20,000 nt of DNA from an uncultured virus (IMG/VR IMGVR_UViG_3300017917_002187) (Duplodnaviria > Heunggongvirae > Uroviricota > Caudoviricetes), in the IMG/VR virus record IMGVR_UViG_3300017917_002187; one strand, 5' to 3'. The position numbers were made by a program, and so were the translations under genes. The notes beneath the pieces were generated by a model. It worked only from the letters and a program-made list of their open reading frames with translations. It ran no database searches and was not told the DNA's origin. This document shows, one piece after another, positions 3,175 through 18,444 of the stretch; positions within the stretch are counted from its first letter, which is position 1; the number at the start of each line of letters is the position of its first letter.

Positions 3175-3180
3175 AATAAA

Positions 3181-3211
3181 ACGTTTTCTATATAAATACC
3201 AAGAAAAACGT
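3181..3211 (-). promoter_or_regulatory. putative late promoter TATTTATA inside an imperfect inverted repeat
   Basis: ACGTTTTCT-ATATAAATACCA-AGAAAAACGT on the plus strand; motif at 3191-3198. Confidence 0.55.
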
Positions 3212-3217
3212 ATTTTT

Positions 3218-4387: not shown

Positions 4388-4393
4388 ACATTA

Positions 4394-4401
4394 ATAAATA
4401 T
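4394..4401 (-). promoter_or_regulatory. putative late promoter ATATTTAT
   Basis: 6 nt upstream of the ATG at 4387. Confidence 0.5.
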
Positions 4402-4427
4402 CACTTTGAAGAGAAAATATTTGTGAA

Positions 4428-4793
4428 TTATTCGACAATGTCACCCTTTTGAATTGCGGTCCATAAAACCTTGTCAACATTTTTAACAATCATCATATGA
4501 CCATCTGGTTGTTGAATACACAACCAATTTATTGATGGGTCATTTTCATCAGATTCACCACTAACAACAACACCTATGGGTAAACCATAATCGGAACCTT
4601 TCCAAACTCTGGGTTGCACAACCGGTGTTGTTTCCTCTACTGCTGGTGATTTGGGTTGTTCAACTTTTGGTTGTGGACTTTCTAATAACTTTTCATCCGT
4701 TTTTTTAGAACCCTCAACGAAAAACAATGTGATTATTGAAACTAAAACAATAACAATAATAATACTTATTGATATACGTATTTTATCTATCAT
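4428..4793 (-). CDS. membrane-anchored hypothetical protein
   Basis: N-terminal hydrophobic helix ISISIIIVIVLVSIITLFFV, P/Q/E-rich linker, small globular C-terminus; ATGA overlap with the upstream gene. Confidence 0.75.
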   Translation of the reverse strand: MIDKIRISISIIIVIVLVSIITLFFVEGSKKTDEKLLESPQPKVEQPKSPAVEETTPVVQPRVWKGSDYGLPIGVVVSGESDENDPSINWLCIQQPDGHMMIVKNVDKVLWTAIQKGDIVE

Positions 4794-5368
4794 AACAAAT
4801 ACTTTAATATTTTATCCTTAATACCTGTTTGTTTTATTCCCTCATTTGAATTGGGTGTTAAAACAAAATTGGTTAACCCGTCATGATTGAAGATTTCATT
4901 TTCAAAAGGTTTTTTATCATAAATTCCCAAATTCAAATCGTCAACTGCAACCCAATGTGTAACTTCAGGGTGCTGGTTCAACCAATATTTTATCTCAATA
5001 ACACGTTCATGTTCAATGTGTGCGTAGTTATGAAACCTTTTCCACCAATCAGGATCAATGTCCTTAGTATGTGCGGTCATATCAATTGGTGCTTTAATCA
5101 CCCCTTTACTTAAATAATACCCCTGTAATTCTTCGAGAGTTGCATGATACCTCCAATCGGAACTAATAACATAATCGGCACCAGTCTCGGTTAATATTTC
5201 ATTTAATACTTCAATTGCTTTGGTATCAAAATTATCAAACCGGTGATCCATATCGTAAGAAGCTTTATGACCATTTTTAGCCATCCATTTTCTTAACTTC
5301 TTATGTCGGGTACCCCAATTATCCGATAAACAAATTACCCCATCATTATCTAAAAATAGTACTTTCAT
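4790..5368 (-). CDS. HAD domain protein, HAD_SAK_2 (Swiss Army Knife RNA-repair-like) type
   Basis: KVLFLDNDGV, VISSDWR, ERVIEIKYWL, WVAVDD. Confidence 0.8.
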   Translation of the reverse strand: MKVLFLDNDGVICLSDNWGTRHKKLRKWMAKNGHKASYDMDHRFDNFDTKAIEVLNEILTETGADYVISSDWRYHATLEELQGYYLSKGVIKAPIDMTAHTKDIDPDWWKRFHNYAHIEHERVIEIKYWLNQHPEVTHWVAVDDLNLGIYDKKPFENEIFNHDGLTNFVLTPNSNEGIKQTGIKDKILKYLL

Positions 5369-5400: not shown

Positions 5401-5979
5401 TTATTCTCCATAATTTAATTCAATTAGACTCTTACTTAATGTATTCAGTGCTTGTTTATAGTACACTTCATTAAATCCGTCTTTGTTTCTTGGAGAAGGT
5501 AAAACATGTATAAAATGATTACGTTGACAATATAACATGTCAGAATCATCATCTATTATGATATAGTTCTCCACACCAGAATCGTCTATGACTTTTTGTT
5601 GTTCTTCTTCTGACCAATTGATATGATTAAATTTTAAGTCTTTTTGAAGATAGTATTTTATTTCTAATCCTCTCGGTATAGTCATTTCAGAAGATCTTAA
5701 AGAAGGGGTAATCCCAATTATCTCACCACTCATTTTTTCCATCTCCCAAACTTTTCTCATGAATTCAATACCCCCCATTCTCCAAGTTGATGAAATTACA
5801 ATCTTAGCACCCGTTTCATCAATCAGTTTGTTTAGTAAATCTTTACTATGTGCGCAGAATTTTTGGTAATAATCTTTACGACCATCTTCCCAAATCCATT
5901 CTTGGTATTTACACTCACCATTACGATAAGCATTTTCACAATTCAAAACACCATCTATATCTAAGAATATGACCTTCAT
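5401..5979 (-). CDS. HAD domain protein, HAD_SAK_2 type (paralog of 4790..5368)
   Basis: KVIFLDIDGVLN, IVISSTWR, RGLEIKYYL, YIIIDDDSDM. Confidence 0.82.
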   Translation of the reverse strand: MKVIFLDIDGVLNCENAYRNGECKYQEWIWEDGRKDYYQKFCAHSKDLLNKLIDETGAKIVISSTWRMGGIEFMRKVWEMEKMSGEIIGITPSLRSSEMTIPRGLEIKYYLQKDLKFNHINWSEEEQQKVIDDSGVENYIIIDDDSDMLYCQRNHFIHVLPSPRNKDGFNEVYYKQALNTLSKSLIELNYGE

Positions 5980-6985: not shown

Positions 6986-6999
6986 ATGATAAATTTAAA

Positions 7000-7030
7000 C
7001 AAATATAATAAGTTATTTTTGGATTACAAA
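7000..7030 (-). promoter_or_regulatory. Bacteroidota sigma70-type promoter (-33 TTTG, 19-nt spacer, -7 TATATTTG)
   Basis: TTTG at 7030-7027 and TATATTTG at 7007-7000. Confidence 0.75.
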
Positions 7031-7035
7031 TATCG

Positions 7036-8430
7036 TTAATTATTATTCAAAATATCAAATTTTTCTTTTATCCATGCAACCTTGTGATTATCAGACATTT
7101 TATTATTTAAAACAATAACAGCGTCTTCAAAAATACTATCAACGGCACTATTTGCCTTACCATACATTTGTATTAAATTCCCGTTTTTGTATTGGAGGTT
7201 TATTCTCTTTTTTTCGTGTTTCATACTTATGTAAACTGACATAATCCCGTGTTTAAATTCCTTTTTCATGCAGTTTTTCATGACATGACCCTCAATATTA
7301 AAATCCTCTTCCGTTTTCAAAATCTTTACTTCAAAAATCTTGTCTTTTATTTTTATATCAGATTCGATTTCATATAAAAAGTAATCCGGGAATGTGTATC
7401 TAATCCTATAACCCCTTTTATAGTGGTTTTTTAAATTACTCCACTCCTCAAATATTCTTTCAAACGACTCAAAATTTTTGGCATTGAATTTTATTTTCAT
7501 TCCTTTGTTTTCTAAAAATTCTCTGATGGATAATAATTCATTAATCATATCTATCACATTATCCCTGTCATCAATTTTATCCCAGTCGTTTATTAATAAT
7601 GCCATACTATTTTTTTCAAACTCGTCTTTTAGAATGTGTATTTTTTTGTTGTAAGTTTTTTTACCAGAGTGTCTTAACCAATCAAATTTTTTTATATAGT
7701 CAATGTGATTTTCACCAAACAACTTACAGATATAGTTTAGAGTTTTTATATTAACGTTGATGTTGGGTGACTTGTTGATTTCACCTACTAAATATTTTGA
7801 TTTTATCCCGTAAGAATCCAATACCGCAGGTAGAAATTTATTATCATTATTTTTAAACCACTTTGGTTTTGGGTACTCATTAATGATTGTCTTATATACA
7901 GAGTCGTGTGCTTTAATTTTTTTCTTATCTAAATGGAAATTAACTAACAAATCAAATAGTGGGTTTACTTGGTGTTTATCAAAATAATTGTGGGTTTTAT
8001 AATGGTTGTTTTCAATATGGGGTTGTAACTTATCAATCAATATTTGCGTTAAATTTATTATGTTTTTTTGATATCTATTACCCCAATAACCACTTCTTTT
8101 TTCTCCCTTGTAAAACCCATTTTCAACTAACTCATTTATATTACTGAAGTTGTTTCTACTTTTTTTGTTTTTGTTTAATTGATTTTTTCTTTTATCCAAA
8201 TTTTCTGTTGTTACTTGGTAATAACAATCTATATCACCATTTTTAACATTTATGGTAAATCCATGTGCTATTGTTAATTTGTTTTTTACAGAAAACCTAT
8301 GAAAATCAAATACGTATTTTGATATGTAATGTATAAGATTCTCAAATTCATATAAACGAATATCACACTCAGAGTGTGATTCATTTGACCTTAATGTTTT
8401 GGATTGTTGATATTGAAACAACATGTTCAT
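7036..8430 (-). CDS. PcfJ-like domain protein (paralog of 8473..10296)
   Basis: C-terminal ILKTEEDFNIEGHVMKNCM...QMYGKAN; shares KKIK..EYP..ND.K...LDSYG.KSK with its neighbour. Confidence 0.65.
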   Translation of the reverse strand: MNMLFQYQQSKTLRSNESHSECDIRLYEFENLIHYISKYVFDFHRFSVKNKLTIAHGFTINVKNGDIDCYYQVTTENLDKRKNQLNKNKKSRNNFSNINELVENGFYKGEKRSGYWGNRYQKNIINLTQILIDKLQPHIENNHYKTHNYFDKHQVNPLFDLLVNFHLDKKKIKAHDSVYKTIINEYPKPKWFKNNDNKFLPAVLDSYGIKSKYLVGEINKSPNINVNIKTLNYICKLFGENHIDYIKKFDWLRHSGKKTYNKKIHILKDEFEKNSMALLINDWDKIDDRDNVIDMINELLSIREFLENKGMKIKFNAKNFESFERIFEEWSNLKNHYKRGYRIRYTFPDYFLYEIESDIKIKDKIFEVKILKTEEDFNIEGHVMKNCMKKEFKHGIMSVYISMKHEKKRINLQYKNGNLIQMYGKANSAVDSIFEDAVIVLNNKMSDNHKVAWIKEKFDILNNN

Positions 8431-8472: not shown

Positions 8473-10296
8473 TTAAAAACCAAAATCAACACCCCCCATA
8501 TCAAAAATATGATTTTGTTCTTCTTTTGCTTTTACTTCAATACCATTAAGTATTATTTTTGATTTTTTTGCCTCAATGTGTTCCAACATTCTTTGACTAG
8601 CAAACCTTTTTAGTCTATTACTTAATACCATTAGTGCTGGTTTAAATTGTTGTGGTGGTTCAGCATTACAAAAAAATCTTTCTTGTACGTAATTACCACT
8701 TTTCTTTTCCACTTCACATGTGACTCTATCTAAACCATTAACATCTCTGAGTGAAATAATCATGGAGGTTGTTTTACTCGCATATGTCCCAACACAATGG
8801 TGCATGTACGCACCCTCCTCACTATACTCCTCTTCTCTTTTTAAAATAACTGGTTTGAATTCATAGGTATTTCCGTCATGTTCAATTTGTATCTTATCCT
8901 CCACATTCCTAATCATCCTATTATCATAAACATACTCCCAAACCCATCCTTTTTTTATTAACATTACTAGTTTGGAAAATTCGGCATGTTCTTCATTAAA
9001 ATTGGTAATATTGGTGGCCCTAAACTTTATATCGGGGTAGTACTCTTTTAATTTACCCAACATAGAAACATGATCCTTGAACAATGATTGAAATTTTAAT
9101 CGTCTATTTTCGTCCATTGTTTTTAAAACCTTAATGATATTCATTTTCTCATCATCACTTAATTCGTTAAAATCCCTAACTAATTTAATTCTTTCACTAG
9201 GTGGACAATGTTCATGAAATATTGGGTCATTATTTTTTCTACAAAAAAGATTAAGTTCTTTTTGGGTCAATAACGATATAAATTTATGATAATTTGAACC
9301 AAATAAATGACAAAATGATGCAAAATCGGGAATGGATAATAGTGGGTTTTCGTGTACTATTTTATTTACAATTTTTGATTTTACACCATAACTATCCAAA
9401 ATTGATAAAATCAATTTTCTATCGTTCTTTTTCAAAAAAACCTCTCCGGGATATTCTCTGACCAATAAATTAAAATAGTCGTTTGGTACTTTAATTTTTT
9501 TGTGTTTAACCAAAAAATCAACACTCAAGTCCATTATTTTTTGTTTAATTTCATCGGTCATGGTTGAATCGTCATTAGATGGAATTAGATTATTAATAGT
9601 TTCCTTACTAACACCTAGGTTTTCTAACAATGTTTCCATAAAAACACGATTGTTTAATTCGGATTTAAACACATCTTGACCCCCACGAAGATCCTTAAAT
9701 TTGAATAAATCGGTATTTAAAAAATTATGAAGTTGGGTGAAGCTGTTTTTTCTGTATCTAATATTTTTTTTGTTTGGAATAACGTTTGAACTACCGCACG
9801 TAATATCTCCGTTTTTAAAACTATAACTTAAACTATAAATTTTTGTTTTGGTTTTGAAATATTTTGAATTAAAGGTTCTTGTGCGTTCCCGGTGATAAAA
9901 TTTTAAGATTAATTTATCTTCAGTTTTTCTTATGACTCTTTCAATAATGTTAACAGATATTGTTGCAAAGGGATTCATATAGTGTCTTTTTATGTGTTTA
10001 TCCCTTGTTGTGAAAAAGATTCCATTATTTTTTTGGTAAGCACAAACCATTGTTAATCTAGATAATTCATCACTATAATAAAACCTTGTTTTTGTGTTTT
10101 TATTATTGGGACCTATTTTAAAATAACCACAAAGGGTGGTGAGACTCATATTAACAGGTGACAATTTATTTTTTACCTCAAAAACCATTTGATTTTCAAG
10201 AAAAGTTGGTTCCTCAACAATTGTCGGAACTAATGGACAATAGTTTTTATATAACGTAATATAAGCGAAATTTACTCTCTGTTTAAGTATTTCCAT
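8473..10296 (-). CDS. PcfJ-like domain protein
   Basis: C-terminal ILKREEEYSEEGAYMHHCVGTY...RVTCEV...QERFFCN matches the PcfJ EG..M.HCV..Y signature. Confidence 0.75.
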   Translation of the reverse strand: MEILKQRVNFAYITLYKNYCPLVPTIVEEPTFLENQMVFEVKNKLSPVNMSLTTLCGYFKIGPNNKNTKTRFYYSDELSRLTMVCAYQKNNGIFFTTRDKHIKRHYMNPFATISVNIIERVIRKTEDKLILKFYHRERTRTFNSKYFKTKTKIYSLSYSFKNGDITCGSSNVIPNKKNIRYRKNSFTQLHNFLNTDLFKFKDLRGGQDVFKSELNNRVFMETLLENLGVSKETINNLIPSNDDSTMTDEIKQKIMDLSVDFLVKHKKIKVPNDYFNLLVREYPGEVFLKKNDRKLILSILDSYGVKSKIVNKIVHENPLLSIPDFASFCHLFGSNYHKFISLLTQKELNLFCRKNNDPIFHEHCPPSERIKLVRDFNELSDDEKMNIIKVLKTMDENRRLKFQSLFKDHVSMLGKLKEYYPDIKFRATNITNFNEEHAEFSKLVMLIKKGWVWEYVYDNRMIRNVEDKIQIEHDGNTYEFKPVILKREEEYSEEGAYMHHCVGTYASKTTSMIISLRDVNGLDRVTCEVEKKSGNYVQERFFCNAEPPQQFKPALMVLSNRLKRFASQRMLEHIEAKKSKIILNGIEVKAKEEQNHIFDMGGVDFGF

Positions 10297-10300
10297 AAAA

Positions 10301-10320
10301 CAAATATACTAATATTTATA
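10301..10320. promoter_or_regulatory. divergent back-to-back promoters: TATATTTG (minus) and TATTTATA (plus)
   Basis: CAAATATA at 10301-10308, 4 nt from the ATG at 10296; TATTTATA at 10313-10320, 12 nt before the ATG at 10333. Confidence 0.65.
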
Positions 10321-10332
10321 ACAAAAAAAAAC

Positions 10333-10467
10333 ATGGCAAAAACATCAAAATCATCTTCTAACTCAAGAAAAGTTAGTTTTGGTAAAAGAAAATCGGGTAT
10401 GGCAAAAAAATCACATAACAAACACGACAATAGTGAAAAAAACTATAGGGGTCAAGGTAGGGGTTAA
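10333..10467 (+). CDS. small basic protein ending in YRGQGRG (44 aa; not in ORF track)
   Basis: MAKTSKSSSNSRKVSFGKRKSGMAKKSHNKHDNSEKNYRGQGRG*; A-rich start context and TATTTATA upstream; fills an otherwise empty ~220-bp gap. Confidence 0.8.
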   Translation: MAKTSKSSSNSRKVSFGKRKSGMAKKSHNKHDNSEKNYRGQGRG

Positions 10468-10490
10468 GTGAAATTTATTATAGTTTTTTT

Positions 10491-10516
10491 ACCAACATGA
10501 TTGTTGGGTTAATTTT
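10491..10516. terminator. weak hairpin between convergent genes
   Basis: CCAACA-TGAT-TGTTGG between the stops at 10467 and 10516. Confidence 0.4.
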
Positions 10517-11010: not shown

Positions 11011-11448
11011 TTATTTTAAAGCATCTATGAGTGCCATTTTTATGGCAGAGGATAGGGTTGTCTGTTGGAAGGGTACTCCGTTGTCTAATTCTAACAACAT
11101 AGACCTGGCTTGTGTTTTGTACCTACCCTGACCTGAATATAGTTGTGTACCTATTGATACGGTTACACGAACTTCGGTTATTTTATTACTAATGGCGAAC
11201 CCACCAATACGAAATGTGTTTTCTGGAACTCCAATGTATGAAACATTAATCGAAACCGATTCACCACTACAAAGATTATAACCCTTGTCTTGTAATATTT
11301 CTTCAGTTATCGTCTTTATCCCAAACAAAACGTTTCTGTTTTCTAGTTGTTTTATTTCTGATGTTGAGTAAACACTATCTATTTGGACACATTGACCAAA
11401 CCCGATTAGTGGTAATAATAAAATAAAAAATAATGTTTTAATTTTCAT
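11011..11448 (-). CDS. secreted protein, short paralog of the CsgG-like lipoprotein
   Basis: Sec signal peptide (..IGFG/Q); NRNVLFGIKTITEEIL and SGQG...FQQTTLSSAIKMAL align with EKNVGLGVTNIALDYL and SGLG...FAQSTVGISTRKAL of 13752..14441. Confidence 0.65.
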   Translation of the reverse strand: MKIKTLFFILLLPLIGFGQCVQIDSVYSTSEIKQLENRNVLFGIKTITEEILQDKGYNLCSGESVSINVSYIGVPENTFRIGGFAISNKITEVRVTVSIGTQLYSGQGRYKTQARSMLLELDNGVPFQQTTLSSAIKMALIDALK

Positions 11449-12397
11449 GTCCTGTTCTTATTAAATAAAAGTTAGTTATTCCCGCATTAGCGGGTGATGT
11501 ATTCATAAAAGAATTAGTTCCTGGGTGTGTTACTCGTAAGTCAACACTAGTACTTCTAATAGAAGTATATTGTGTTTGGGTAAGTAAACGATATGTTGGC
11601 ACTACCCACTCTTTCCCGTTAGTTTTTTGTAATTGTAAATATATATCTGACACTGTGAATGTGCCATTATTGTTAATATCGTACCTATAAAAATCCATAC
11701 CTGTCACATTTCTTCCCCCCAACACTAGATTTGCATTATCAAGTGCTGTTGTTGGTGGGGGTATTGACAAACTATCAACAATAATTCTCCATTCTATAGA
11801 AGGATTAGTAGGTCGTAAAAATGAATAATCACCAACAAAGTTTGTTAATGTCGTTGTCTCTAAAACCCATGGACCCGTGGTTACAACATACTCAAATTCA
11901 ATTACATATGGTAAAGATGTGTTTGGTAAGTCATTCCATTTACCACCACTCACAAACTGAGCATAGTCTTCATTACCTGCGTTGTTTGGTTCACCACCAT
12001 TCCAATTGGTATAAGTTACTGGTTCATTTGTTACCCATCTCCATTGTCCCTCTACAGCCTCATCATTAAATCCAATCCAACCTGAAGGCCACGTTTGAAA
12101 TACAAAATTATTTTCAGCGGCACTATTCATTGTTACTAAATGACCACCCATGTTCTCACAAGCAACCTTTGCCGATGTCCATGTCATGCTGGTTGTTGAT
12201 CTGTAGTATGAGTGTCCGTTATAATTTGTTTGTGATGTGAATCCGGTTATGTTGGGTGTTACTCGTTTCCATAATTGTATCCTAACACCACCAACCCCAA
12301 CGTTGTTTGCACCGAACACTCGACCACTATGTGTAAAGTTTTGAGCGTTTGATGTGGTGTATATGATTATAAATAACGTATATAATATTAGTCTCAT
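11438..12397 (-). CDS. secreted C-type lectin protein with dockerin-like module
   Basis: Signal peptide (..SNA/Q); CTLD motifs GHSYY, TWTSAKVACENMGGHLV, WIGFND, NWNGGEPNN, WND; dockerin-like loop DINNNGTFTVSD. Confidence 0.88.
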   Translation of the reverse strand: MRLILYTLFIIIYTTSNAQNFTHSGRVFGANNVGVGGVRIQLWKRVTPNITGFTSQTNYNGHSYYRSTTSMTWTSAKVACENMGGHLVTMNSAAENNFVFQTWPSGWIGFNDEAVEGQWRWVTNEPVTYTNWNGGEPNNAGNEDYAQFVSGGKWNDLPNTSLPYVIEFEYVVTTGPWVLETTTLTNFVGDYSFLRPTNPSIEWRIIVDSLSIPPPTTALDNANLVLGGRNVTGMDFYRYDINNNGTFTVSDIYLQLQKTNGKEWVVPTYRLLTQTQYTSIRSTSVDLRVTHPGTNSFMNTSPANAGITNFYLIRTGHEN

Positions 12398-13689
12398 AGT
12401 GTTAATTTACCCCCAATAAGTATTTGATAGTTTAAAACATTTTCGGTAACTGAATATGTTGTGCCACCAGTTAAACCAATCCTAAAGGTTTTAGTCACCG
12501 CATAATTAACATTTAAAAATGGAATTGCAATGGGTTTAGATGTAAAAACCTCTTCTGTATAAAATTTCATGTATGGAACATATATTGTAGCCAATATTGC
12601 CACCGCATCAATCTTTTTTGTTATTTTACCTCTATACATACCACCAAATATGGTTACCGCTGCGGTTATTGGTTCTTTATACATTTGACCATACACACCT
12701 GCAGCACCATACAACCAAGTAAATTTTTTTAAATTATCTATACGAATATAAACCAATGTATTTGTAAATGTATTTGGTAATAAAGACACACTATTTGATA
12801 CAAGATCAATGTGTTTTCTTTGTGTCTTATTAGTTATCCACGATTTGAATATTGAAATATTACCGACTTGTGCCTTAACTGTTAAATCTGCGGAAACCCC
12901 CCAAGATGTTTTACCGTCACCTTTCATTCTAATGTAACTAGTGGTTATTCTACTATCTTGGGACCCATCAGATGCTCTTTGAACCCCCACAATGTCACCA
13001 GTAAGTAAAATGGCAGGTTTTTGTCTTTGAGTTGCGGATGCTTGACTTGTGGATCTGTTAGTGTTTGTTCCAGTACCATTCGTTGATTCTTCTTCCTTTA
13101 CTTCTTCACCATCCTTATTAGTTTTTGGTTTATCATTATCAGTAGTGTTGGTAGAAGACGAACCATTGTTACCCCCACTATTAGAGTTATTATTGTCACC
13201 ATTATTGTTATTTTCTTCGTTTTTATCTTCCTCTTTGTTTTTATCATCACCTTTTGGTTTATCATTTGTGGAATTGGCAACAGACGATAAACCAACACTT
13301 GCAGACCCACCAAAATTACTCACAGTATTTATAAGTGTGTTCAATGATAAAACATTTGTTACAATTACATTTGAAATATTAATAACGTTATCTGTTATTA
13401 CATTAAAACCAATTGAACCGCACGGGTTACCCTTACCATAAATATTATAGGTATTATTTGCCCACTTGTCAAACTCACCATTTTGTAATTGTTGTGGTGT
13501 GAAGGTTTGTGATACCCCATAGTATGTCATAACAATAGGAAAATTCCCGTTTTGAGATGGTACCTCAATCCTTTTTAATTCTTTGGTACACGGATCCACA
13601 TATGTATAAGAAAAGGATTGGGCATTTAAACCCAATCCTATCCCTAATAAACATAATGTGAACAATATTTTATACTTTAAAGTATCCAT
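12394..13689 (-). CDS. secreted protein with low-complexity linker and putative C-terminal outer-membrane beta-barrel
   Basis: Signal peptide (..LNA/Q); N-terminal domain with two Cys; N/D/K/E/T-rich linker; about 200 aa of amphipathic beta-strand-like sequence ending YQILIGGKLTL. Confidence 0.6.
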   Translation of the reverse strand: MDTLKYKILFTLCLLGIGLGLNAQSFSYTYVDPCTKELKRIEVPSQNGNFPIVMTYYGVSQTFTPQQLQNGEFDKWANNTYNIYGKGNPCGSIGFNVITDNVINISNVIVTNVLSLNTLINTVSNFGGSASVGLSSVANSTNDKPKGDDKNKEEDKNEENNNNGDNNNSNSGGNNGSSSTNTTDNDKPKTNKDGEEVKEEESTNGTGTNTNRSTSQASATQRQKPAILLTGDIVGVQRASDGSQDSRITTSYIRMKGDGKTSWGVSADLTVKAQVGNISIFKSWITNKTQRKHIDLVSNSVSLLPNTFTNTLVYIRIDNLKKFTWLYGAAGVYGQMYKEPITAAVTIFGGMYRGKITKKIDAVAILATIYVPYMKFYTEEVFTSKPIAIPFLNVNYAVTKTFRIGLTGGTTYSVTENVLNYQILIGGKLTL

Positions 13690-13751
13690 TTTTTAGTTTG
13701 GTAATAAACATTATGTGATAATGTTTGAGAAAACTTATTATTTCTCTTATA

Positions 13752-14441
13752 TTACTTTTCGAAAATACCATCTTTAATCATCCTTGTCACTACACGAGAA
13801 CAACCAGTTTCCAAAGCCTTTCTCGTTGAGATACCAACAGTTGATTGTGCAAATTTCATTTCAATTGATTTTAGAAACGATTGTCCATATTGGGTAGCTT
13901 CACCTAAACCAGAACCTACTCTAACTTGTCCTGACTCAGCGTCTACAAATCTTACTTGTAAACCTAATCTTGTAGTTACCTCCAATTGTTTTTTACCTGC
14001 AACAAACGTTTCTTGTTCGTCAACTGAAAAATCATATACTTCAATGTAAACAAAAAACTTCGCCAATTTAATTTTACCTTTACCATCTAATTTGTTTTCA
14101 GTAAAACCTTTTGCACTTGCTTGGAATTGTTTAACCATTTTAAGTTTGATCTCTTCTTTATCTTCAGTAAACTCAAATCTGTTTGTTCCTTCTAAGTAAT
14201 CTAATGCAATATTTGTAACACCTAAACCGACATTCTTTTCTTTAAGTACAGGGTACATGTTTAAAACATTCTCACTAATACCAATAGACAATATTTGAAT
14301 AGGTATTTGTTTACCATCGTAATCACTTACATTGGTAATAGATTGTTTCTTTTCAAAATCGGCTTGGTATGTTTCGGTTCTAGTTGTTCCACAACCAACC
14401 ATTAAGGTTGTTGCTAATACTAAAAATAAATTTCTTACCAT
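13752..14441 (-). CDS. CsgG/HfaB-family outer-membrane lipoprotein
   Basis: Lipobox LMVG/C; GLGVTNIALDYLEGTNRFEFTE, LAKFFVYIEVYDF, LQVRFVDAESGQV pattern typical of CsgG-like proteins. Confidence 0.75.
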   Translation of the reverse strand: MVRNLFLVLATTLMVGCGTTRTETYQADFEKKQSITNVSDYDGKQIPIQILSIGISENVLNMYPVLKEKNVGLGVTNIALDYLEGTNRFEFTEDKEEIKLKMVKQFQASAKGFTENKLDGKGKIKLAKFFVYIEVYDFSVDEQETFVAGKKQLEVTTRLGLQVRFVDAESGQVRVGSGLGEATQYGQSFLKSIEMKFAQSTVGISTRKALETGCSRVVTRMIKDGIFEK

Positions 14442-14770
14442 GGTGCTTCTTCTTCTTTTTTCTTTTCTTCTTTTTTAGGTTCTTCTTTTGCAGGTTTCTC
14501 AATAACTCTTTCTTTAATAATTGTGGTTGGTGCTTGTTTTTGGGTATTTTCCTGTTGCTGTTGAACATTGATTGTTATTGGTGCGGCTGCAGGTGCAGCC
14601 ACTGGTGCAACTTGTTCTGTTTTGGTTTCGTTGGAATCTGATTGACCATTAAATATAATAGTACCAAGATACGCACCTCCACCAGTAATTAGAGTTGTTA
14701 AAGTTGCGATAATGGTCTTTTTTAAACCCGACCAAGTTCCATCATTTGTTTCTTGTGTTTCTTCTGACAT
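14435..14770 (-). CDS. small single-pass membrane protein with A/P/Q/K/E-rich tail
   Basis: Hydrophobic IIATLTTLITGGGAYLGTIIF; overlaps the start of the CsgG-like gene. Confidence 0.7.
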   Translation of the reverse strand: MSEETQETNDGTWSGLKKTIIATLTTLITGGGAYLGTIIFNGQSDSNETKTEQVAPVAAPAAAPITINVQQQQENTQKQAPTTIIKERVIEKPAKEEPKKEEKKKEEEAPW

Positions 14771-14800
14771 GATTTTTCCTTTTTTTGTTTTTATTGTTTA

Positions 14801-16687
14801 TTATAATGTTACACCCGATAACACTTTCTTACTTGAGATTACTTTACCATCACATTCCATGATTGCAAAATATGTACTACCAGCCAAACCTTTTAAGTCT
14901 GCGGTGTATCTATATTGACCTTGTGGCATTCTAGTATCGATAACATTAACTACTTTGTTTCCAAACATGTCTATAAAGTATACTGTGGTATTTGAGTTTG
15001 ATGGAACATTAAATTGTACCGCAACCATACCGGTTGTTGGGTTAGGGTAGATTAAAATGTCCGCAATATCTCCACCAACATTAACTGTTGGGTATTGTAC
15101 ACGTTGTACTTCAACTCTACCATCTGTAGGTCTGATTTTTAAATCACTTGCAATTGTGTTACCAACAAATTTACGAGTCACATATATTGGACTATTTGAC
15201 CAATCTTGTTTAGGTTTCAACGCCACAAATTGTAAAACAATTACTTCTTCACCATCATTTATATTGTTTTTATTAGACATGTCAACACCACCCCATTCAA
15301 CTACACCATCGTTAGGATTAACAAATGATAACCATTGACCAACTTTTTCTTTTGTTGTTACATTTTTAAATTCTAATAATGTTTTATCATATTTTAATGC
15401 CAATTGAAAAGATCCTAATGATTGGTCACCAATCAATGCCTTAACAGGAATATTAACTAAGTTACCTTCTTCAACACTTAATGTTGGTAAATTAATTTCA
15501 ATTTCTTGTAAGTTAGCGTAGTATTCGGTAGTTTGATCTATAATGAAATTAGGGGTATTGTTTGGATTAATGATTTTAATCGGTACCAATTTAGCCATAT
15601 GGAATCCAGTTTGGTTAGCATCCCCAGTTGCTAAAACGTATACCGTGATAGAATCAACACCCGGAAGAATATTATAAGTGTAATTTACAACACCAGGTAT
15701 AGTTAAACTATAATTTGTAGAAGGATTGTTCTTTATTGTGTCATATTCACTTACACTAAAGAATCTAACATCAGGAACAGAGTAAGATGTAAATCTACCA
15801 GATATTCTATTAAATATTGAATAAACATCGGATACTGTTACGTCACCTGAACCATTAACATCAGATGCGTGGTAATCAAAACCTGATAGTTCTTCAACAC
15901 CAGTAACAAATCTATTTACTTTTTGAGCGTCTGCGGTTGTAACAACATTACCTAATGATAATGTATCACCCCTAACTTCTACTTTAGTATTATACCACGT
16001 TGTATCTATGTCGGCTCTGAAACTAAATTTACCATTAATGTCTGTTGTGGCAACGGTTACTAAACTCCAATTACTTGATGATTTTGGTTTCTTATATAAA
16101 CCAACCAAAAGATTTTTAGTAAATGAATTAGTTACGTTAACAAATGTACCGCGAAAAGATAGATTTGGTCTTAAGAATTTACCACCACCATTAAATTTGG
16201 TTAGTGGTGTGTCTTTACCTCCCGATGTTGATGCAATTGTTGGGAATGTGTTATCAAAAACCAAGTTACTGATTCCAGTTAAGTTTTGAAACACACTATC
16301 GGGTCTGTGTTTAAAATTAATATTAAACAATTCCCCTGATGTGTATGTGAAATTGGTGTCACTACCTGTATGTACAACAGTAATTAAAATTCTACCATTA
16401 ATTATACGTGATTGTATATATTGTGTAGGGTCAGCTATTGATAACGACACTGTTGGGTTAACAAACGCAGATGTGTCGTAATTAATACCGAATTGTAATC
16501 CGGTTATTTTTGTGTTTGTTGTGTTATTATAACAAATTTTGACATTTGTTTCTTTTAAGTTTGATGTCCCAACACTATACGTGGAGTCAATAATTATTGA
16601 GTTTCCGTTAGGTGTCGGACAAGTCTGCGCTTGGCTTTGGTTAAAAAAGGGCGCAATTAATAATAAAGAAAAAAGAATATTTTTCAT
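14801..16687 (-). CDS. T9SS type A CTD protein with cohesin-like, dockerin-like and second cohesin-like modules (scaffoldin-like)
   Basis: Signal peptide (..SQA/Q); cohesin-like ITGLQFGINYD...GELFNINF and VNIPV...LGSFQLALKYDKTLLEFKNV; dockerin-like VTTADA...DVNGSGDVTVSD; C-terminal IYPNPTTG...IDMFGNKV...GSTYF...KKV T9SS signal. Confidence 0.85.
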   Translation of the reverse strand: MKNILFSLLLIAPFFNQSQAQTCPTPNGNSIIIDSTYSVGTSNLKETNVKICYNNTTNTKITGLQFGINYDTSAFVNPTVSLSIADPTQYIQSRIINGRILITVVHTGSDTNFTYTSGELFNINFKHRPDSVFQNLTGISNLVFDNTFPTIASTSGGKDTPLTKFNGGGKFLRPNLSFRGTFVNVTNSFTKNLLVGLYKKPKSSSNWSLVTVATTDINGKFSFRADIDTTWYNTKVEVRGDTLSLGNVVTTADAQKVNRFVTGVEELSGFDYHASDVNGSGDVTVSDVYSIFNRISGRFTSYSVPDVRFFSVSEYDTIKNNPSTNYSLTIPGVVNYTYNILPGVDSITVYVLATGDANQTGFHMAKLVPIKIINPNNTPNFIIDQTTEYYANLQEIEINLPTLSVEEGNLVNIPVKALIGDQSLGSFQLALKYDKTLLEFKNVTTKEKVGQWLSFVNPNDGVVEWGGVDMSNKNNINDGEEVIVLQFVALKPKQDWSNSPIYVTRKFVGNTIASDLKIRPTDGRVEVQRVQYPTVNVGGDIADILIYPNPTTGMVAVQFNVPSNSNTTVYFIDMFGNKVVNVIDTRMPQGQYRYTADLKGLAGSTYFAIMECDGKVISSKKVLSGVTL

Positions 16688-16705
16688 GATAGTAGTTTGT
16701 GTTAT

Positions 16706-16720
16706 TCATAAATATTATGA
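16706..16720 (-). promoter_or_regulatory. putative late promoter ATATTTAT in a short palindrome, driving the envelope operon
   Basis: TCATA-AATAT-TATGA on the plus strand; motif at 16708-16715, 20 nt upstream of the ATG at 16687. Confidence 0.55.
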
Positions 16721-16756
16721 GCAAACAAAAAAAGGCAACTATCTGAAAAAAATATG

Positions 16757-16999: not shown

Positions 17000-18385
17000 T
17001 TATTTGTCTGTTGTAATCAGATTACCTTGTATTGACCATGTAAAATCAAGTTTTACATCGTTTTTAAACAATGATGTGTCTTCCATGTCAATGTATTGGT
17101 CTGTTGTGTAACCATTTTTACCTGTCATGGTAGATAATGCGTGGCATGACATACAATTCGTCTGCATACCATAAACAAAGTTTGGGTTGAATTTATTCGG
17201 TAAACTGAATACTCCTGGTCCAAATCCACCTTCAAGATAGGGGTTAAATGCAATTACAGGTCTTCCACCTTTATCTGTACCTCCAGTTATTGGTTGATTA
17301 GGCCAAACAAACGTCCAAGCAACACTAACAGCATAATGTGATGCCGCACCCTTTAATTCTTTTGGTCTTAAACCCCCTTCAAATTTTGAACTTGGTGATG
17401 GTGGATTAGATGGGTCTGGACACCAGAAATATGTTTGCCATGTCCAATTTTTAATTTCTTTTGTTGTCACGTGCATTGCAACTAATAAAATATAATCACC
17501 TTCAATAAACTGTCTAGTTGCAGGAGTACCAGCATCTTGATGCATGTTTAAATAATCCGCACCTACTCTATCAATCTTGTAATTAATGAAATCATTTACA
17601 TTACATGTTGCTGCTTTGATTTCTTCATCGGTTGGGTTTGATTTAGTTACTGGTGTTAATTTTTTATTTGGTACTTGTTTATTATTCACGTCAGCATAAA
17701 CAAATGTTGTCCATTTATCATATCTAAATGCAGTATCGGGGTTTGGTTTAACCCAAACAGGAACTCTTATTAATCCATTCTTATCTGGTACACCAACATA
17801 ATACGTAGGTTTTGATGTTATTGAAGTGTTGGGAAATTCAGGAATAGAACCAATACCATCTTTAACAAGGAATTTTTTAAGTTCTGATTGTTTGAATAAA
17901 CTGTTTGATGTTGCGAAGTATGATGCACTTGGATCATAAGACACTGTTTCCAAGACAACAAAATTACTATCAACCTTTTGTCCCTCAAATAATTGTCCAT
18001 GTATAAATTGTTTAGGGACGTTTAAATTTGTTCTTGATATTTTAACCAAATCTTCTTTAGTTGTTTTACCTTGTGCTGTTAAAATCATTAACTCTTGAAC
18101 ACCATTCCAAGTTTCAAAGGTAAGTAAAGTTTGACCATTGTATTTTTCTTTGGTTGGTTCGGTCAAACCAGCCCAAATACCCCAAGCGTGTTTTACAATG
18201 CTTGATGTATCTTGATTTTCTAACCAAGTGTAAATTTTACCAGAATCTTCTGGAAATTTGAATCCCTCAATATTAACTGTTGGGAATTCTCTTGGTGTAA
18301 TTGTTTCTTCTTCTTTTCTACAAGAATAAAGGATTGTCATGAATCCAATAATTAGAAATAGATAATTTACGATTTTTCTTTTCAT
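17000..18385 (-). CDS. lipoprotein with C-terminal CxxCH heme-c binding motif
   Basis: Lipobox ILYS/C followed by RKEEE; NCMSCH (CxxCH at 17141-17155); MHVTTKE..NWTWQTYFW core. Confidence 0.72.
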   Translation of the reverse strand: MKRKIVNYLFLIIGFMTILYSCRKEEETITPREFPTVNIEGFKFPEDSGKIYTWLENQDTSSIVKHAWGIWAGLTEPTKEKYNGQTLLTFETWNGVQELMILTAQGKTTKEDLVKISRTNLNVPKQFIHGQLFEGQKVDSNFVVLETVSYDPSASYFATSNSLFKQSELKKFLVKDGIGSIPEFPNTSITSKPTYYVGVPDKNGLIRVPVWVKPNPDTAFRYDKWTTFVYADVNNKQVPNKKLTPVTKSNPTDEEIKAATCNVNDFINYKIDRVGADYLNMHQDAGTPATRQFIEGDYILLVAMHVTTKEIKNWTWQTYFWCPDPSNPPSPSSKFEGGLRPKELKGAASHYAVSVAWTFVWPNQPITGGTDKGGRPVIAFNPYLEGGFGPGVFSLPNKFNPNFVYGMQTNCMSCHALSTMTGKNGYTTDQYIDMEDTSLFKNDVKLDFTWSIQGNLITTDK

Positions 18386-18421
18386 TTTTTGTTTTTATTT
18401 TTAGTTTATTTATTATGTCAA

Positions 18422-18429
18422 TATAAATA
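18422..18429 (-). promoter_or_regulatory. putative late promoter TATTTATA
   Basis: About 37 nt upstream of the ATG at 18385; part of a TTATTTAT...ATAAATAA inverted repeat. Confidence 0.45.
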
Positions 18430-18444
18430 ATAAATTATTGATTA

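What the first reader, a model, noticed from the sequence alone, without database searches (positions are those of the whole stretch)
11011..16715. Phage-encoded cell-surface display operon: T9SS scaffoldin, dockerin-lectin, CsgG-like lipoprotein and putative beta-barrel
Seen: six co-oriented genes, three junctions overlapping, under one TATTTAT motif. All six carry export or membrane signals (four Sec signal peptides, one lipobox, one TM helix). Known: T9SS CTDs route proteins to the Bacteroidota surface, cohesin-dockerin pairs assemble cellulosome-like complexes, and CsgG/HfaB are OM secretion or anchoring channels for curli and holdfast. Inference: the phage uses the host T9SS to display a scaffoldin that docks a sugar-binding lectin, with its own CsgG-like channel and barrel exporting or anchoring partners that lack a CTD. 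Possible roles are aggregating infected cells with new hosts or particles, masking receptors (superinfection exclusion), or altering grazer recognition. I know of no described phage system with this architecture.
Basis: partly seen in the sequence, partly recalled or inferred. Interest (0 to 1): 0.92.

Follow-up and report, generated by a model that had tools for sequence, protein, structure and literature searches.

The report
Phage envelope cassette with lectin scaffold
A large phage of Flavobacterium-type bacteria carries six tightly packed genes that send a secretion-tagged cohesin scaffold, a sugar-binding lectin, two CsgG-like proteins, an outer-membrane barrel and a membrane tether into the infected cell's envelope; the block is widespread in related phages, but what it does has not been tested.

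Summary
Six co-oriented minus-strand genes (11011-16687) overlap at three junctions, and each begins with a signal peptide, lipobox or TM helix. Domain calls are mostly confirmed. SCAF has Cohesin and a T9SS type A CTD above Pfam cut-offs, plus a dockerin-like module. LECT has a C-type lectin domain with EPN/WND motifs and shares SCAF's dockerin-bearing module. LIPO has a CsgG fold (Z 12) and is linked to Pfam CsgG through relatives. S145 is its short paralogue. P431 ends in a 12-strand outer-membrane barrel, most like autotransporter translocators (Z 24).

The block is phage-borne. It is syntenic with gp013-gp019 of Flavobacterium phage immuto, 58 of 81 loci hold five of the genes, and LIPO was found in only 2 of 401 host-family genomes. 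TM, LIPO and P431 are the constant core; the cohesin and lectin proteins vary.

Docking, surface display and a CsgG 'channel' remain untested. Phage T9SS cargo and phage CsgG/CsgF are already published; I found no paper on this combination. This scan has noted the same cassette on other DNA (42 notes, at least 39 genomes). Verdict: a real, conserved cassette of unknown function, a new variant of known kinds.

The parts
16708..16714 (-). TATTTAT (in ATAATATTTATG), a promoter-like motif 20 nt upstream of the SCAF start
   Evidence: Five of 7 coding-strand copies are intergenic and lie just upstream of genes. 12 of 24 related loci have it within 110 nt upstream of SCAF. Promoter function is inferred.
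14801..16687 (-). SCAF, 628 aa: signal peptide, cohesin-like N-terminal domain, beta-sandwich, dockerin-like module, cohesin, T9SS type A CTD
   Evidence: Pfam. Profile against solved chains. Homologues in 63 of 81 loci.
15803..15946 (-). SCAF residues 248-295, dockerin-like EF-hand module
   Evidence: Pfam Dockerin_1 E 0.041, 14.5 bits, below the 22.9-bit cut-off. 15 of 25 homologues match at E<=0.1, best 7.8e-5. The family profile matches solved dockerin 4uyp_B at E 1.6e-4.
15185..15499 (-). SCAF residues 397-501, cohesin domain
   Evidence: Pfam Cohesin E 2.1e-8, 34.9 bits against a 24.1-bit cut-off. 23 of 25 homologues match. Solved cohesin 4ums_A at E 0.005.
14825..15052 (-). SCAF residues 546-621, T9SS C-terminal sorting domain (type A)
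   Evidence: Pfam Por_Secre_tail E 4.2e-7, 30.6 bits against a 27-bit cut-off. 25 of 25 homologues match. 134 of 201 host-family genomes match the SCAF profile, and the listed matches lie only in this region. No NCBIfam hit.
14435..14770 (-). TM, 111 aa: bitopic membrane protein with a Pro/Ala/Gln/Glu/Lys-rich tail ending in Trp
   Evidence: Sequence. Family present in 76 of 81 loci. 53 of 53 distinct homologues end in W. No family match.
13752..14441 (-). LIPO, 229 aa: lipoprotein of the CsgG superfamily
   Evidence: AF2 model with pLDDT 74.7. CsgG is the best match by Foldseek at E 2e-7 and by VIA at Z 12.0-12.4. 14 of 32 distant relatives exceed the Pfam CsgG cut-off, as does bacterial homologue L086. 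No direct Pfam hit for the window's own protein.
12394..13689 (-). P431, 431 aa: signal peptide, small two-Cys N-terminal domain with a long helix (nt 13312-13620), disordered linker, C-terminal 12-strand beta-barrel (nt 12397-13014)
   Evidence: Alignment A2. AF2 model. Foldseek. VIA: NalP translocator Z 24.1, EspP 22.6, FapF 19.1, KdgM 18.5. Family present in 76 of 81 loci.
11438..12397 (-). LECT, 319 aa: signal peptide, beta-sandwich interrupted by a C-type lectin domain (nt 11909-12190), then a dockerin-like module (about nt 11603-11755); no CTD
   Evidence: Pfam Lectin_C E 2.6e-17. Invariant EPN 136-138 and WND 154-156. Matches to CD23, mannose-binding protein and DC-SIGNR at about 1e-20 to 1e-22. 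Residues 161-319 are homologous to SCAF 192-361, hhalign 99.1%, E 1e-18. Dockerin_1 in 4 of 8 homologues but not in this protein.
11011..11448 (-). S145, 145 aa: secreted short paralogue of LIPO
   Evidence: hhalign of A1 against A3: probability 97.5%, E 5.4e-12, 153 columns. Alignment A3. Homologues in 59 of 81 loci.

Best explanation
This is a phage-encoded cell-envelope module, probably transcribed as one operon, that places phage proteins in every layer of the infected Flavobacterium-type cell's envelope.

Shown by computation: all six products begin with an export or membrane signal. SCAF ends in a sorting domain of the same type as the host family's own T9SS cargo. SCAF has a cohesin, a weaker second cohesin-like domain and a dockerin-like module. 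LECT has a canonical Ca-type sugar-binding lectin domain and the same dockerin-like module, but no CTD. LIPO and S145 are paralogues with the CsgG/PelC/LptE-type fold. P431 is a 12-strand outer-membrane barrel with an N-terminal domain on a long disordered linker. TM is an inner-membrane protein with a proline-rich tail.

Inferred: Sec exports all six. The host T9SS carries SCAF across the outer membrane. LECT (or SCAF itself) docks on a SCAF cohesin through the dockerin-like module, in which case LECT could ride out with SCAF. TM, LIPO, S145 and P431 form a conserved outer-membrane and periplasm platform. The result is an infected cell whose surface carries an exchangeable sugar-binding protein. 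The most likely purpose is to change what binds to that surface: blocking further phage, masking receptors on debris, or sticking infected cells to neighbours or particles.
For: - Gene structure: tight, with overlaps, and signals on all six.
- Domains: Cohesin and Por_Secre_tail above Pfam cut-offs. Across homologues, CTD 25/25, Cohesin 23/25, Dockerin_1 15/25. The SCAF profile hits a solved dockerin at E 1.6e-4 and a cohesin at 0.005.
- CTD type: matches cargo tails in 134 of 201 host-family genomes.
- Lectin: invariant EPN/WND and a module shared with SCAF.
- Natural split: in the immuto clade the scaffold is a CTD-less dockerin-bearing half plus a separate cohesin-CTD protein.
- Folds: LIPO is CsgG-like, S145 is its paralogue, and P431 is a barrel.
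- Co-occurrence: TM 76, P431 76 and SCAF/LECT 63 of 81 loci; five genes together on one strand in 58 of 81.
- Variable partners: these carry C-type lectin, ConA-like or PA14 domains, and LECT and SCAF diverge faster than LIPO (median identity 48% and 44% against 62%).
- Phage context.
Against: - No binding, localisation or expression data exist.
- The window's own LECT gives no Pfam dockerin hit even at E<=10, and SCAF's dockerin is below the cut-off.
- NCBIfam did not recognise the CTD.
- One clade's cohesin protein (L031, 602 aa) shows no CTD, so T9SS export is not universal to the block.
- Lipidation of LIPO is not conserved.
- The P431 model is weak outside the barrel (pLDDT about 52 for the helix).
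- That the core and the cohesin/lectin proteins act together rests on co-occurrence only.
- In 24 of 81 loci an endolysin gene lies beside the block, and here the TATTTAT motif is shared with the endolysin-like gene. Both would also fit a role at lysis.
Confidence: 0.55

Rival explanations
1. The block is a lysis-associated outer-membrane opening or remodelling device. TM, LIPO, S145 and P431 would act at the end of infection, as a spanin substitute or a timing pore, as proposed for phage CsgG in Melnitz. The cohesin and lectin proteins would be accessory.
For: A PG_binding_1+GH19 endolysin family lies within the fetched flanks in 24 of 81 loci, and small TM-protein families lie inside the block in 45 and 36 loci. 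The TM and LIPO genes overlap like spanin pairs. TATTTAT also precedes the window's endolysin-like gene. Buchholz et al. 2022 propose a lysis-timing role for phage CsgG/CsgF (PMC9004378, passages read). Earlier notes of this scan report the block in a 'spanin slot' (not tested here).
Against: In this window the block lies about 7 kb from the endolysin-like gene. A lipobox would be essential for an o-spanin, yet 24 of 37 distinct LIPO N-termini lack one. LIPO is a large folded domain, and TM's periplasmic tail is low-complexity rather than coiled coil. This reading does not explain the T9SS tag, the cohesin or the swappable lectins. The block sits among replication and nucleotide-metabolism genes.
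Confidence: 0.18
2. There is no single machine, only a hot spot of independent exported 'moron' genes. SCAF and LECT would be secreted, soluble glycan-binding factors, and LIPO, S145, P431 and TM would have unrelated envelope roles such as exclusion lipoproteins or a porin.
For: The position of LECT shifts (3 main orders). The cohesin and lectin partners are swapped or absent in some clades while the core stays. The LIPO fold also matches the exclusion lipoprotein TraT at Z 7.5. The barrel resembles KdgM/Tsx-type porins.
Against: Five genes stay together on one strand in 58 of 81 loci at identities down to 25-30%. Overlapping junctions point to co-translation. The dockerin-like module shared by SCAF and LECT implies a common partner.
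Confidence: 0.12
3. The block is a curli- or Fap-like fibre secretion system. The CsgG-like ring and/or a FapF-like barrel would export an unfolded, low-complexity protein that forms surface fibres to aggregate cells ('sibling capture').
For: LIPO's best structural match is CsgG. P431 resembles FapF in its barrel (Z 19.1) and in having an N-terminal helix and a disordered linker. Zaragoza-Solas et al. 2020 proposed this idea for phage CsgG/CsgF (PMC7029224, passages read).
Against: No CsgF, CsgA/B or Fap family was detected in any product. No repeat-type amyloid subunit gene lies in the block. LIPO's hairpin is polar and its lipidation is not conserved. Autotransporter barrels score higher than FapF.
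Confidence: 0.06
4. The window is bacterial chromosome, and the block is an ordinary host locus.
For: Five relatives of LIPO lie in records labelled as bacterial MAGs. One of them, L086 from an Ignavibacteriales MAG, has truly bacterial neighbours.
Against: Four of those five loci have the same phage-type neighbours as the viral contigs. The LIPO profile was found in only 2 of 401 genomes of the family of the Flavobacterium MAG, and in 5 loci among one genome each of 185,579 species, though that scan finds close relatives only. The window's flanks match PHROG families, as do those of related contigs (33 of 50 ORFs). The block is syntenic with a cultured myovirus.
Confidence: 0.02

Closest known systems
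gp013-gp019 of Flavobacterium phage vB_FspM_immuto (Immutovirus, NC_055915)
   Same: The same gene set. Lectin gp013 is 52% identical, TM gp016 55% over its N-terminal half, LIPO gp017 55%, P431 gp018 25% and S145 gp019 35%. It likewise lies among replication and nucleotide-metabolism genes.
   Different: The lectin gene lies first. The scaffold is two ORFs: gp014, the N-terminal part without a CTD, and gp015, cohesin plus CTD in the L053 homologue. The record names only 'cohesin domain' and 'lectin C-type domain' proteins and calls the rest hypothetical. The papers found that mention immuto concern DNA modification and polymerases (search listing).
Phage-encoded T9SS cargo of 'Cryophage' (Bellas et al. 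2020, PMC7468147; passages read)
   Same: Phage genes with type A T9SS sorting domains, variable between phage variants. One is a PA14 protein, a domain also seen in this cassette's variants. The authors suggest secretion of membrane-associated proteins and a link to competition or superinfection.
   Different: That cargo is an endoglucanase, a GH39 and a PA14 protein. The passages read mention no cohesin, dockerin, CsgG-like protein or barrel ('lectin', 'cohesin' and 'CsgG' occur 0 times in the text). I did not test whether Cryophage carries this block.
Phage CsgG/CsgF 'partial curli operon' of pelagimyophages and Methylophilales phage Melnitz (PMC7029224, PMC9004378; passages read)
   Same: A CsgG-type protein encoded by large lytic aquatic phages, in an operon with hypothetical proteins, absent from the host and of unknown function. 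Aggregation and lysis timing have been proposed.
   Different: Those are recognisable CsgG and CsgF of Proteobacteria-type curli systems. Here LIPO is not detected directly by Pfam CsgG and no CsgF is present. The partners here are a second CsgG-like paralogue, an autotransporter-like barrel, a T9SS cohesin scaffold and a lectin. tblastn with LIPO finds only immuto among 50,697 GenBank phage records.
Cellulosomal and non-cellulosomal cohesin-dockerin assemblies
   Same: A Cohesin domain above the Pfam cut-off, and a dockerin-like EF-hand module whose family profile matches the solved dockerin 4uyp_B. The layout is modular, with one anchored cohesin protein and a cargo protein carrying the dockerin-like module.
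   Different: It is phage-encoded. Anchoring or export is by a T9SS CTD rather than SLH or sortase (recalled). The cargo is a lectin, not an enzyme. Only one canonical Ca-binding loop is evident and Pfam scores are sub-threshold in this window. Binding is untested.
CsgG (curli channel), PelC, LptE and TraT: outer-membrane lipoproteins that share one fold
   Same: The LIPO model aligns to CsgG at Z 12.0-12.4 (about 170 residues, rmsd about 3.5), PelC at 10.3, LptE at 8-9 and TraT at 7.5. Several of these work as rings, or as plugs beside a beta-barrel.
   Different: There is no direct sequence match. Lipidation is not conserved. Membrane hairpins are not evident. Oligomeric state is unknown. 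The same domain is found fused to kinases and caspases.
Type Va autotransporter translocator domains (NalP, EspP, AIDA-I); also FapF and KdgM/NanC porins
   Same: A 12-strand barrel at the C-terminus, with NalP at Z 24.1 (226 aligned, rmsd 2.8), EspP at 22.6 and AIDA-I at 20.0. An N-terminal domain and a helix align with the pore helix.
   Different: No Pfam autotransporter match. About 100 disordered residues separate the helix from the first strand. The helix has low confidence. Language-model neighbours are unnamed Bacteroidota 'transporter' barrels and porins.

Membership tests
Cohesin (Pfam PF00963) | Match to the family profile above the curated cut-off | tested here: met
   SCAF 397-501: 34.9 bits against a 24.1-bit cut-off, E 2.1e-8. 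23 of 25 homologues match. The N-terminal domain (about residues 45-150) matches only below the cut-off, in 7 of 11 homologues tested.
Dockerin type I (Pfam PF00404) | Match to the family profile; paired Ca-binding EF-hand-like loops | tested here: inconclusive
   SCAF 248-295: 14.5 bits, below the 22.9-bit cut-off. 15 of 25 SCAF homologues and 4 of 8 LECT homologues match at E<=0.1. The SCAF profile matches solved dockerin 4uyp_B at E 1.6e-4. The window's LECT has no hit but has an invariant D240-x-N242...S250-D251 loop and is homologous to SCAF's module. The first loop looks degenerate.
Cohesin-dockerin complex | The two modules bind each other (Ca-dependent) | not testable with these tools
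No other binding test is available.
T9SS type A cargo (Por_Secre_tail PF18962 / TIGR04183) | C-terminal sorting domain at the very end of a Sec-exported protein | tested here: met
   SCAF 546-621 of 628: 30.6 bits against a 27-bit cut-off. 25 of 25 homologues match. It matches the cargo tails of 134 of 201 host-family genomes. NCBIfam gave no hit at E<=1. Actual export by T9SS was not tested.
C-type lectin domain (PF00059), Ca-dependent sugar-binding type | Profile match plus EPN/QPD and WND motifs of the Ca/sugar site (motif meaning recalled) | tested here: met
   63.9 bits against a 22.6-bit cut-off. E136-P137-N138 and W154-N155-D156 are invariant in 8 of 8. Matches to CD23, mannose-binding protein and DC-SIGNR at about 1e-20 to 1e-22. 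Sugar specificity was not tested.
CsgG family (PF03783) | Sequence match to the family profile | tested here: inconclusive
   The window's LIPO has no hit even at E<=10, and neither does its profile against solved chains. Membership holds only by transitivity: bacterial homologue L086 (38-42% identical) scores 28.6 bits against a 20.8-bit cut-off, and 14 of 32 distant relatives of the LIPO profile exceed the cut-off.
CsgG family (PF03783) | CsgG fold | tested here: met
   Model pLDDT 74.7. CsgG chains are the top Foldseek matches at E 2e-7 and the top VIA matches at Z 12.0-12.4 over 154-173 residues. PelC at 10.3 is within about 2 Z units.
CsgG-type secretion channel | Lipidated N-terminal Cys, membrane-spanning hairpins and a nonameric pore | tested here: inconclusive
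   The window's LIPO has a lipobox, but 24 of 37 distinct homologue N-termini have no Cys. The long hairpin (129-167) is polar and variable. The model aligns equally well to the pre-pore and membrane forms. Oligomer state could not be tested.
Curli (type VIII) secretion system | CsgF and CsgA/B-type subunits alongside CsgG | tested here: not met
   No CsgF, CsgA/B or CsgE match in any of the six products by Pfam or NCBIfam.
Type Va autotransporter | C-terminal 12-strand barrel with a pore-filling helix directly before strand 1; Pfam Autotransporter match | tested here: inconclusive
   The barrel fold is met, at Z 20-24 to NalP, EspP, EstA and AIDA-I. There is no Pfam match. The helix at 90-126 is separated from strand 1 by about 100 disordered residues and has pLDDT about 52.
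Two-component spanin | An i-spanin with an N-terminal TM and a coiled-coil periplasmic domain, plus a small o-spanin lipoprotein with a conserved lipobox | tested here: not met
   TM's tail is Pro/Ala/Gln/Glu/Lys-rich and low-complexity. LIPO is a 229-aa folded domain, and its lipobox is absent from most homologues.

The most novel reading that the evidence does not exclude
The block is one integrated, phage-built surface-display machine. A conserved platform (an inner-membrane tether ending in Trp, a CsgG-like ring pair and a stalked outer-membrane barrel) holds a T9SS-delivered cohesin scaffold, onto which phages plug interchangeable sugar-binding heads (C-type lectin, ConA-like, PA14). This would turn the infected cell into a glycan-binding particle that captures neighbouring hosts or shuts out competing phages. 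It would be a viral counterpart of the cellulosome principle, and the first multi-layer envelope apparatus known to be encoded by a lytic phage.
Probability: 0.22. Interest if true: 0.85.

Novelty: new variant of a known kind. Interest (0 to 1): 0.6.

Why it matters
Lytic phages are known to change the host surface with single proteins, such as exclusion lipoproteins and O-antigen modifiers. Two papers report phage CsgG/CsgF of unknown role, and one reports phage T9SS cargo. This block joins those threads. It is a conserved multi-gene set that addresses every envelope layer, borrows the host's T9SS sorting signal and carries swappable sugar-binding heads.

If it works as one unit, it would show that phages can rebuild the surface of the infected cell in a modular way. 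That would bear on superinfection, on aggregation of abundant freshwater and marine Flavobacteriia, and on particle attachment. A cultured phage-host pair carries the block (immuto and Flavobacterium sp. LMO8), so the question can be tested directly.

Tried and rejected
- **DNA search:** megablast of the window against GenBank phages found no match.
- **Direct family searches:** Pfam, PHROGs and NCBIfam gave nothing for LIPO, TM and S145. P431 gave only low-complexity noise.
- **Profiles against solved-structure sequences:** LIPO and P431 gave nothing below E 0.36.
- **Complex prediction:** Docking is therefore untested.
- **Protein atlas:** no usable hit for the P431 N-terminal domain. For the barrel, only unnamed Bacteroidota 'transporter' clusters and porin families.
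- **P431 relatives:** 423 reached E<=0.001, and all 120 listed are unnamed and have no Pfam domain.
- **Upstream lipoprotein p461:** no GenBank phage match.
- **TATTTAT as a window-wide enrichment:** rejected, at 11 against 15.5 expected. I kept it only because of its placement.
- **Sigma-70-type promoter and terminator scans:** counts were at chance level.
- **Spanin reading of TM/LIPO:** considered and down-weighted (see membership test).
- **Literature:** searches for phage + type IX secretion + cohesin, phage-encoded + T9SS, bacteriophage + cohesin domain + dockerin + Flavobacterium and CsgG + phage genome + lipoprotein found no paper on this cassette. These searches cover only the held open-access library.
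- **Not run:** no SignalP-type predictor and no third structure prediction were available, so SCAF, LECT, TM and S145 were not modelled.

Full report
**What is in the window.** All long ORFs lie on the minus strand at 27-36% G+C. The finding covers six of them, listed here in transcription order:

| Gene | Coordinates | Length |
|---|---|---|
| SCAF | 14801-16687 | 628 aa |
| TM | 14435-14770 | 111 aa |
| LIPO | 13752-14441 | 229 aa |
| P431 | 12394-13689 | 431 aa |
| LECT | 11438-12397 | 319 aa |
| S145 | 11011-11448 | 145 aa |

Three junctions overlap: TM/LIPO by 7 nt, P431/LECT by 4 nt and LECT/S145 by 11 nt. The other two are gaps of 30 and 62 nt. Each product starts with a hydrophobic signal-like segment, a lipobox (LIPO, MVGC) or a single TM helix (TM). 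I read these from the sequences and a hydropathy script, because no signal-peptide predictor was available.

**The TATTTAT motif.** It sits 20 nt before the SCAF start. Its overall count is not enriched: 11 copies against 15.5 expected. However, 5 of the 7 coding-strand copies fall in the 5.3% of the window that is intergenic, each 6-37 nt before a start codon. The genes concerned are SCAF, the endolysin-like gene 3506-4387, the lipoprotein gene 17000-18385 and two others. In addition, 12 of 24 related loci have the motif within 110 nt upstream of SCAF. I take it as a plausible phage promoter element.

**Phage or host.** No whole genome is held for the window. Its flanks match phage protein families: deoxyribonucleotidase, phosphoesterase, endolysin-type PG-binding protein, thymidylate synthase and several families of unknown function.

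- SCAF and LIPO each find only the immuto isolates of Flavobacterium sp. LMO8 (4 records) among 50,697 GenBank phage records.
- There the block is gp013-gp019, placed after the polymerase, SSB, RecA, helicase, RNR and nuclease genes. Identities are 52% (lectin), 55% (LIPO), 25% (P431), 35% (S145) and 28% (SCAF, there split into gp014 and gp015).
- In IMG/VR, 97 stretches encode a LIPO relative, and 80 loci were kept.
- By tblastn at E<=1e-5, the 81 loci (80 plus immuto) hold LIPO in 81, LECT in 66, SCAF in 63, P431 in 62 and S145 in 59.
- All five occur together, on one strand, in 58 loci. The orders are SCAF-LIPO-P431-LECT-S145 (34), LECT after S145 (14) and LECT first (8). Two further loci gave other orders; I take these as cross-hits between the related SCAF and LECT proteins.
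- By clustering, the TM and P431 families are each present in 76 of 81 loci, and SCAF/LECT in 63. Some loci are cut by contig ends.
- I scanned 50 flanking ORFs, chosen from 83 non-core ORFs of at least 120 aa in 8 loci. Of these, 33 match PHROGs: RNR, DnaB, UvsX, SSB, ThyA, topoisomerase II, QueC and endolysin.
- A scan of one genome for each of 185,579 species found 5 loci, all in MAG records; this scan finds close relatives only. Four have the phage-type neighbourhood, and one (L086, Ignavibacteriales) is truly bacterial.
- The LIPO profile was found in 2 of 401 genomes sampled from the family of the Flavobacterium MAG, one being that MAG itself.

**SCAF.**
- Pfam gives Cohesin at 397-501 (34.9 bits, cut-off 24.1) and Por_Secre_tail at 546-621 (30.6 bits, cut-off 27).
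- It gives a sub-threshold Dockerin_1 at 248-295 (E 0.041).
- Across 25 homologues, the CTD is found in 25, Cohesin in 23 and Dockerin_1 in 15, with best E 7.8e-5.
- The family profile matches a solved dockerin (4uyp_B, E 1.6e-4), a solved cohesin (4ums_A, E 0.005) and two CTD-bearing chains (E 0.02-0.04).
- The N-terminal 180 residues give weak Cohesin matches in 7 of 11 homologues, all below the cut-off.
- NCBIfam did not recognise the CTD.
- In 201 host-family genomes, 134 match the SCAF profile. Of the 150 matches listed (171 more were not), all but one lie within profile positions 509-631, the CTD. The exception is on the phage-like contig of G001.

SCAF therefore carries a host-type sorting signal on a body that the listed host matches do not share.

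**LECT.**
- Lectin_C matches at 70-163 (63.9 bits).
- EPN (136-138) and WND (154-156) are invariant in 8 of 8 sequences. From memory, these motifs mark Ca-dependent, mannose-type sugar binding.
- The profile matches CD23, mannose-binding protein and DC-SIGNR at about 1e-20 to 1e-22.
- The window's LECT gives no Pfam dockerin hit, although 4 of 8 homologues do, with best E 2.6e-4.
- Residues 161-319 are homologous to SCAF 192-361 (hhalign 99.1%, E 1e-18). That stretch includes an invariant D-x-N...S-D loop at 240-251.
- LECT has no CTD.
- In other clades the partner proteins carry Lectin_C plus a ConA-like domain, or PA14 plus cohesin.
- In the immuto clade the scaffold is naturally split into a CTD-less N-terminal half and a separate signal peptide-cohesin-CTD protein.

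**LIPO and S145.** Neither has a direct family match.
- The LIPO model (pLDDT 74.7) is closest to CsgG, by Foldseek at E about 2e-7 and by VIA at Z 12.0-12.4 over 154-173 residues.
- PelC follows at Z 10.3, Cj1090c at 10.2, LptE at 8-9 and TraT at 7.5.
- Sequence supports the link only through intermediates. The bacterial homologue in L086 passes the Pfam CsgG cut-off (28.6 bits against 20.8).
- The LIPO profile finds 290 representatives at E<=0.001 among 1.84 billion. I scanned 32 full-length distant ones: 17 match CsgG at E<=0.01 and 14 exceed the cut-off. Two of the 32 are fused to protein kinases and three to caspases.
- S145 is a short paralogue of LIPO (hhalign 97.5%, E 5.4e-12).

Three points argue against a CsgG-type pore. 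Among 37 distinct N-termini, only 13 have a Cys near the cleavage site and 24 have none; these came from 78 LIPO-length members, of which 14 lacked the anchor motif I used. The long hairpin at 129-167 is polar and variable. No CsgF or curlin was found.

**P431 and TM.**
- P431 has a conserved N-terminal domain with two invariant Cys, a disordered S/G/N/T/E/K-rich linker and a C-terminal domain ending in GGKLTL.
- The model has mean pLDDT 59, with 64-82 in the barrel. It shows 12 strands at 226-430 and a long helix at 90-126.
- VIA ranks autotransporter translocators first: NalP at Z 24.1 (226 aligned, rmsd 2.8), EspP 22.6, EstA 21.2 and AIDA-I 20.0. FapF follows at 19.1 and KdgM at 18.5 (162 aligned, rmsd 1.8) (Foldseek).
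- The longer alignments include the helix, as a pore helix would. Its confidence is low, however, and about 100 disordered residues separate it from strand 1.
- Relatives are unnamed and have no Pfam domain. Language-model neighbours are unnamed Bacteroidota barrels and porins.
- TM has a short cytoplasmic head, one helix and a Pro/Ala/Gln/Glu/Lys-rich tail. All 53 distinct homologues end in Trp.

**How it most likely works.**

Shown: the signals, the domains, the paralogy, the folds, the co-occurrence and the phage context.

Inferred:
- Sec exports all six products.
- The host T9SS takes SCAF across the outer membrane. From memory, T9SS moves folded proteins.
- LECT and SCAF's own dockerin-like module bind a SCAF cohesin. 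CTD-less partners could then leave with, or hang on, the CTD-bearing cohesin protein, and the natural split in the immuto clade fits this.
- TM, LIPO, S145 and P431 form a conserved platform in the periplasm and outer membrane.
- The outcome is an infected cell that displays a swappable sugar-binding head.

The faster divergence and domain swapping of SCAF and LECT relative to LIPO (median identity 44% and 48% against 62%) fits a part that meets a variable outside target. I put 0.55 on this reading. The exact purpose (exclusion, masking of debris or aggregation) is open.

**Rivals.**
- *A role at lysis (0.18).* It is supported by endolysin genes beside the block in 24 of 81 loci, by small TM-protein families inside it, by the promoter motif shared with the window's endolysin-like gene and by the published lysis-timing idea for phage CsgG. 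Against it, the block here lies about 7 kb from the lysis-like pair at 3506-4793, the lipobox is not conserved, and this reading leaves the T9SS tag and the lectins unexplained.
- *Independent exported genes (0.12).*
- *A curli- or Fap-like fibre system (0.06).*
- *A host locus (0.02).*

**What is known.** Phage-encoded T9SS cargo was reported once, for 'Cryophage': an endoglucanase, a GH39 and a PA14 protein (PMC7468147, passages read). Phage CsgG/CsgF operons of unknown role are reported in pelagimyophages and in Melnitz (PMC7029224 and PMC9004378, passages read). I reached those two papers through earlier notes of this scan. My four literature searches found no paper on this combination, and the papers that mention immuto concern other topics (search listing).

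Earlier notes show that the scan has met the same cassette on other DNA: 42 notes in at least 39 genomes. They also claim that it occurs in unrelated phage lineages and in a 'spanin slot', which I did not test. I file the finding as a new variant of known kinds: real, conserved and untested in function.

**Limits.** Binding could not be tested. Only two structures could be predicted. Signal peptides were judged by eye and by hydropathy. 'Phage' status for the metagenome contigs rests on IMG/VR membership, PHROG matches and synteny with one cultured phage.

Noticed in passing
window 17000-18385 (-): The gene just upstream of the block encodes a 461-aa lipoprotein (LYSC lipobox) followed by RKEEE. 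From memory, this resembles the Bacteroidota signal for surface-exposed lipoproteins. It matches phrog_19967, is absent from GenBank phages and from the related loci, and is preceded by the same TATTTAT motif.
   Followed up: partly
window intergenic gaps, e.g. 1091-1153, 3175-3217, 4388-4427, 16688-16756, 18386-18444 versus 1811-1878, 6986-7035, 10297-10515: There seem to be two classes of upstream motif. One is [AG]ATATTTAT, before the block, the endolysin-like gene, p461 and two others. The other is TATATTTG-like, which from memory resembles the Bacteroidota -7 consensus TAnnTTTG and lies before other genes. They may mark phage-specific and host-type promoters.
   Followed up: partly
window 14435-14770 (-) and homologues: All 53 distinct TM-family sequences end in Trp, within an acidic/Pro context (EAPW, EESW, APKW). 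This strictly conserved C-terminal residue has no known partner.
   Followed up: no
window 3506-4793 (-): A 121-aa bitopic protein with a Pro-rich tail (4428-4793) sits directly upstream of a 293-aa protein whose only recognised part is a PG_binding_1 domain (3506-4387). They are candidate lysis genes, and no catalytic domain was identified.
   Followed up: partly
L086:7974-15410: The only clearly bacterial relative (an Ignavibacteriales MAG) has a CsgG-family lipoprotein, a 204-aa paralogue, an 825-aa transglutaminase-like protein and a CHASE2-adenylate/guanylate cyclase in a row. This may be the cellular counterpart of the paired CsgG-like genes.
   Followed up: partly
proteins P0113, P0119, P0082, P0083, P0090: The LIPO-type CsgG-like domain occurs fused to Ser/Thr protein kinases (C-terminal to the kinase) and to caspase-like peptidases. 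This suggests it can act as a periplasmic binding or sensor module rather than a pore.
   Followed up: no
window 4790-5368 and 5401-5979 (-); 7036-8430 and 8473-10296 (-): There are two tandem HAD_SAK_2 paralogues (192 aa each) and two large tandem PcfJ-like proteins (464 and 607 aa) between the block and the lysis-like genes.
   Followed up: no
L021:4018-4625, L045:8725-9072, L031:6936-7963 and others: Many related loci carry one or two further small TM-protein families inside the block: a 115-190-aa family in 45 loci and an 81-103-aa family in 36 loci. This window lacks both.
   Followed up: no
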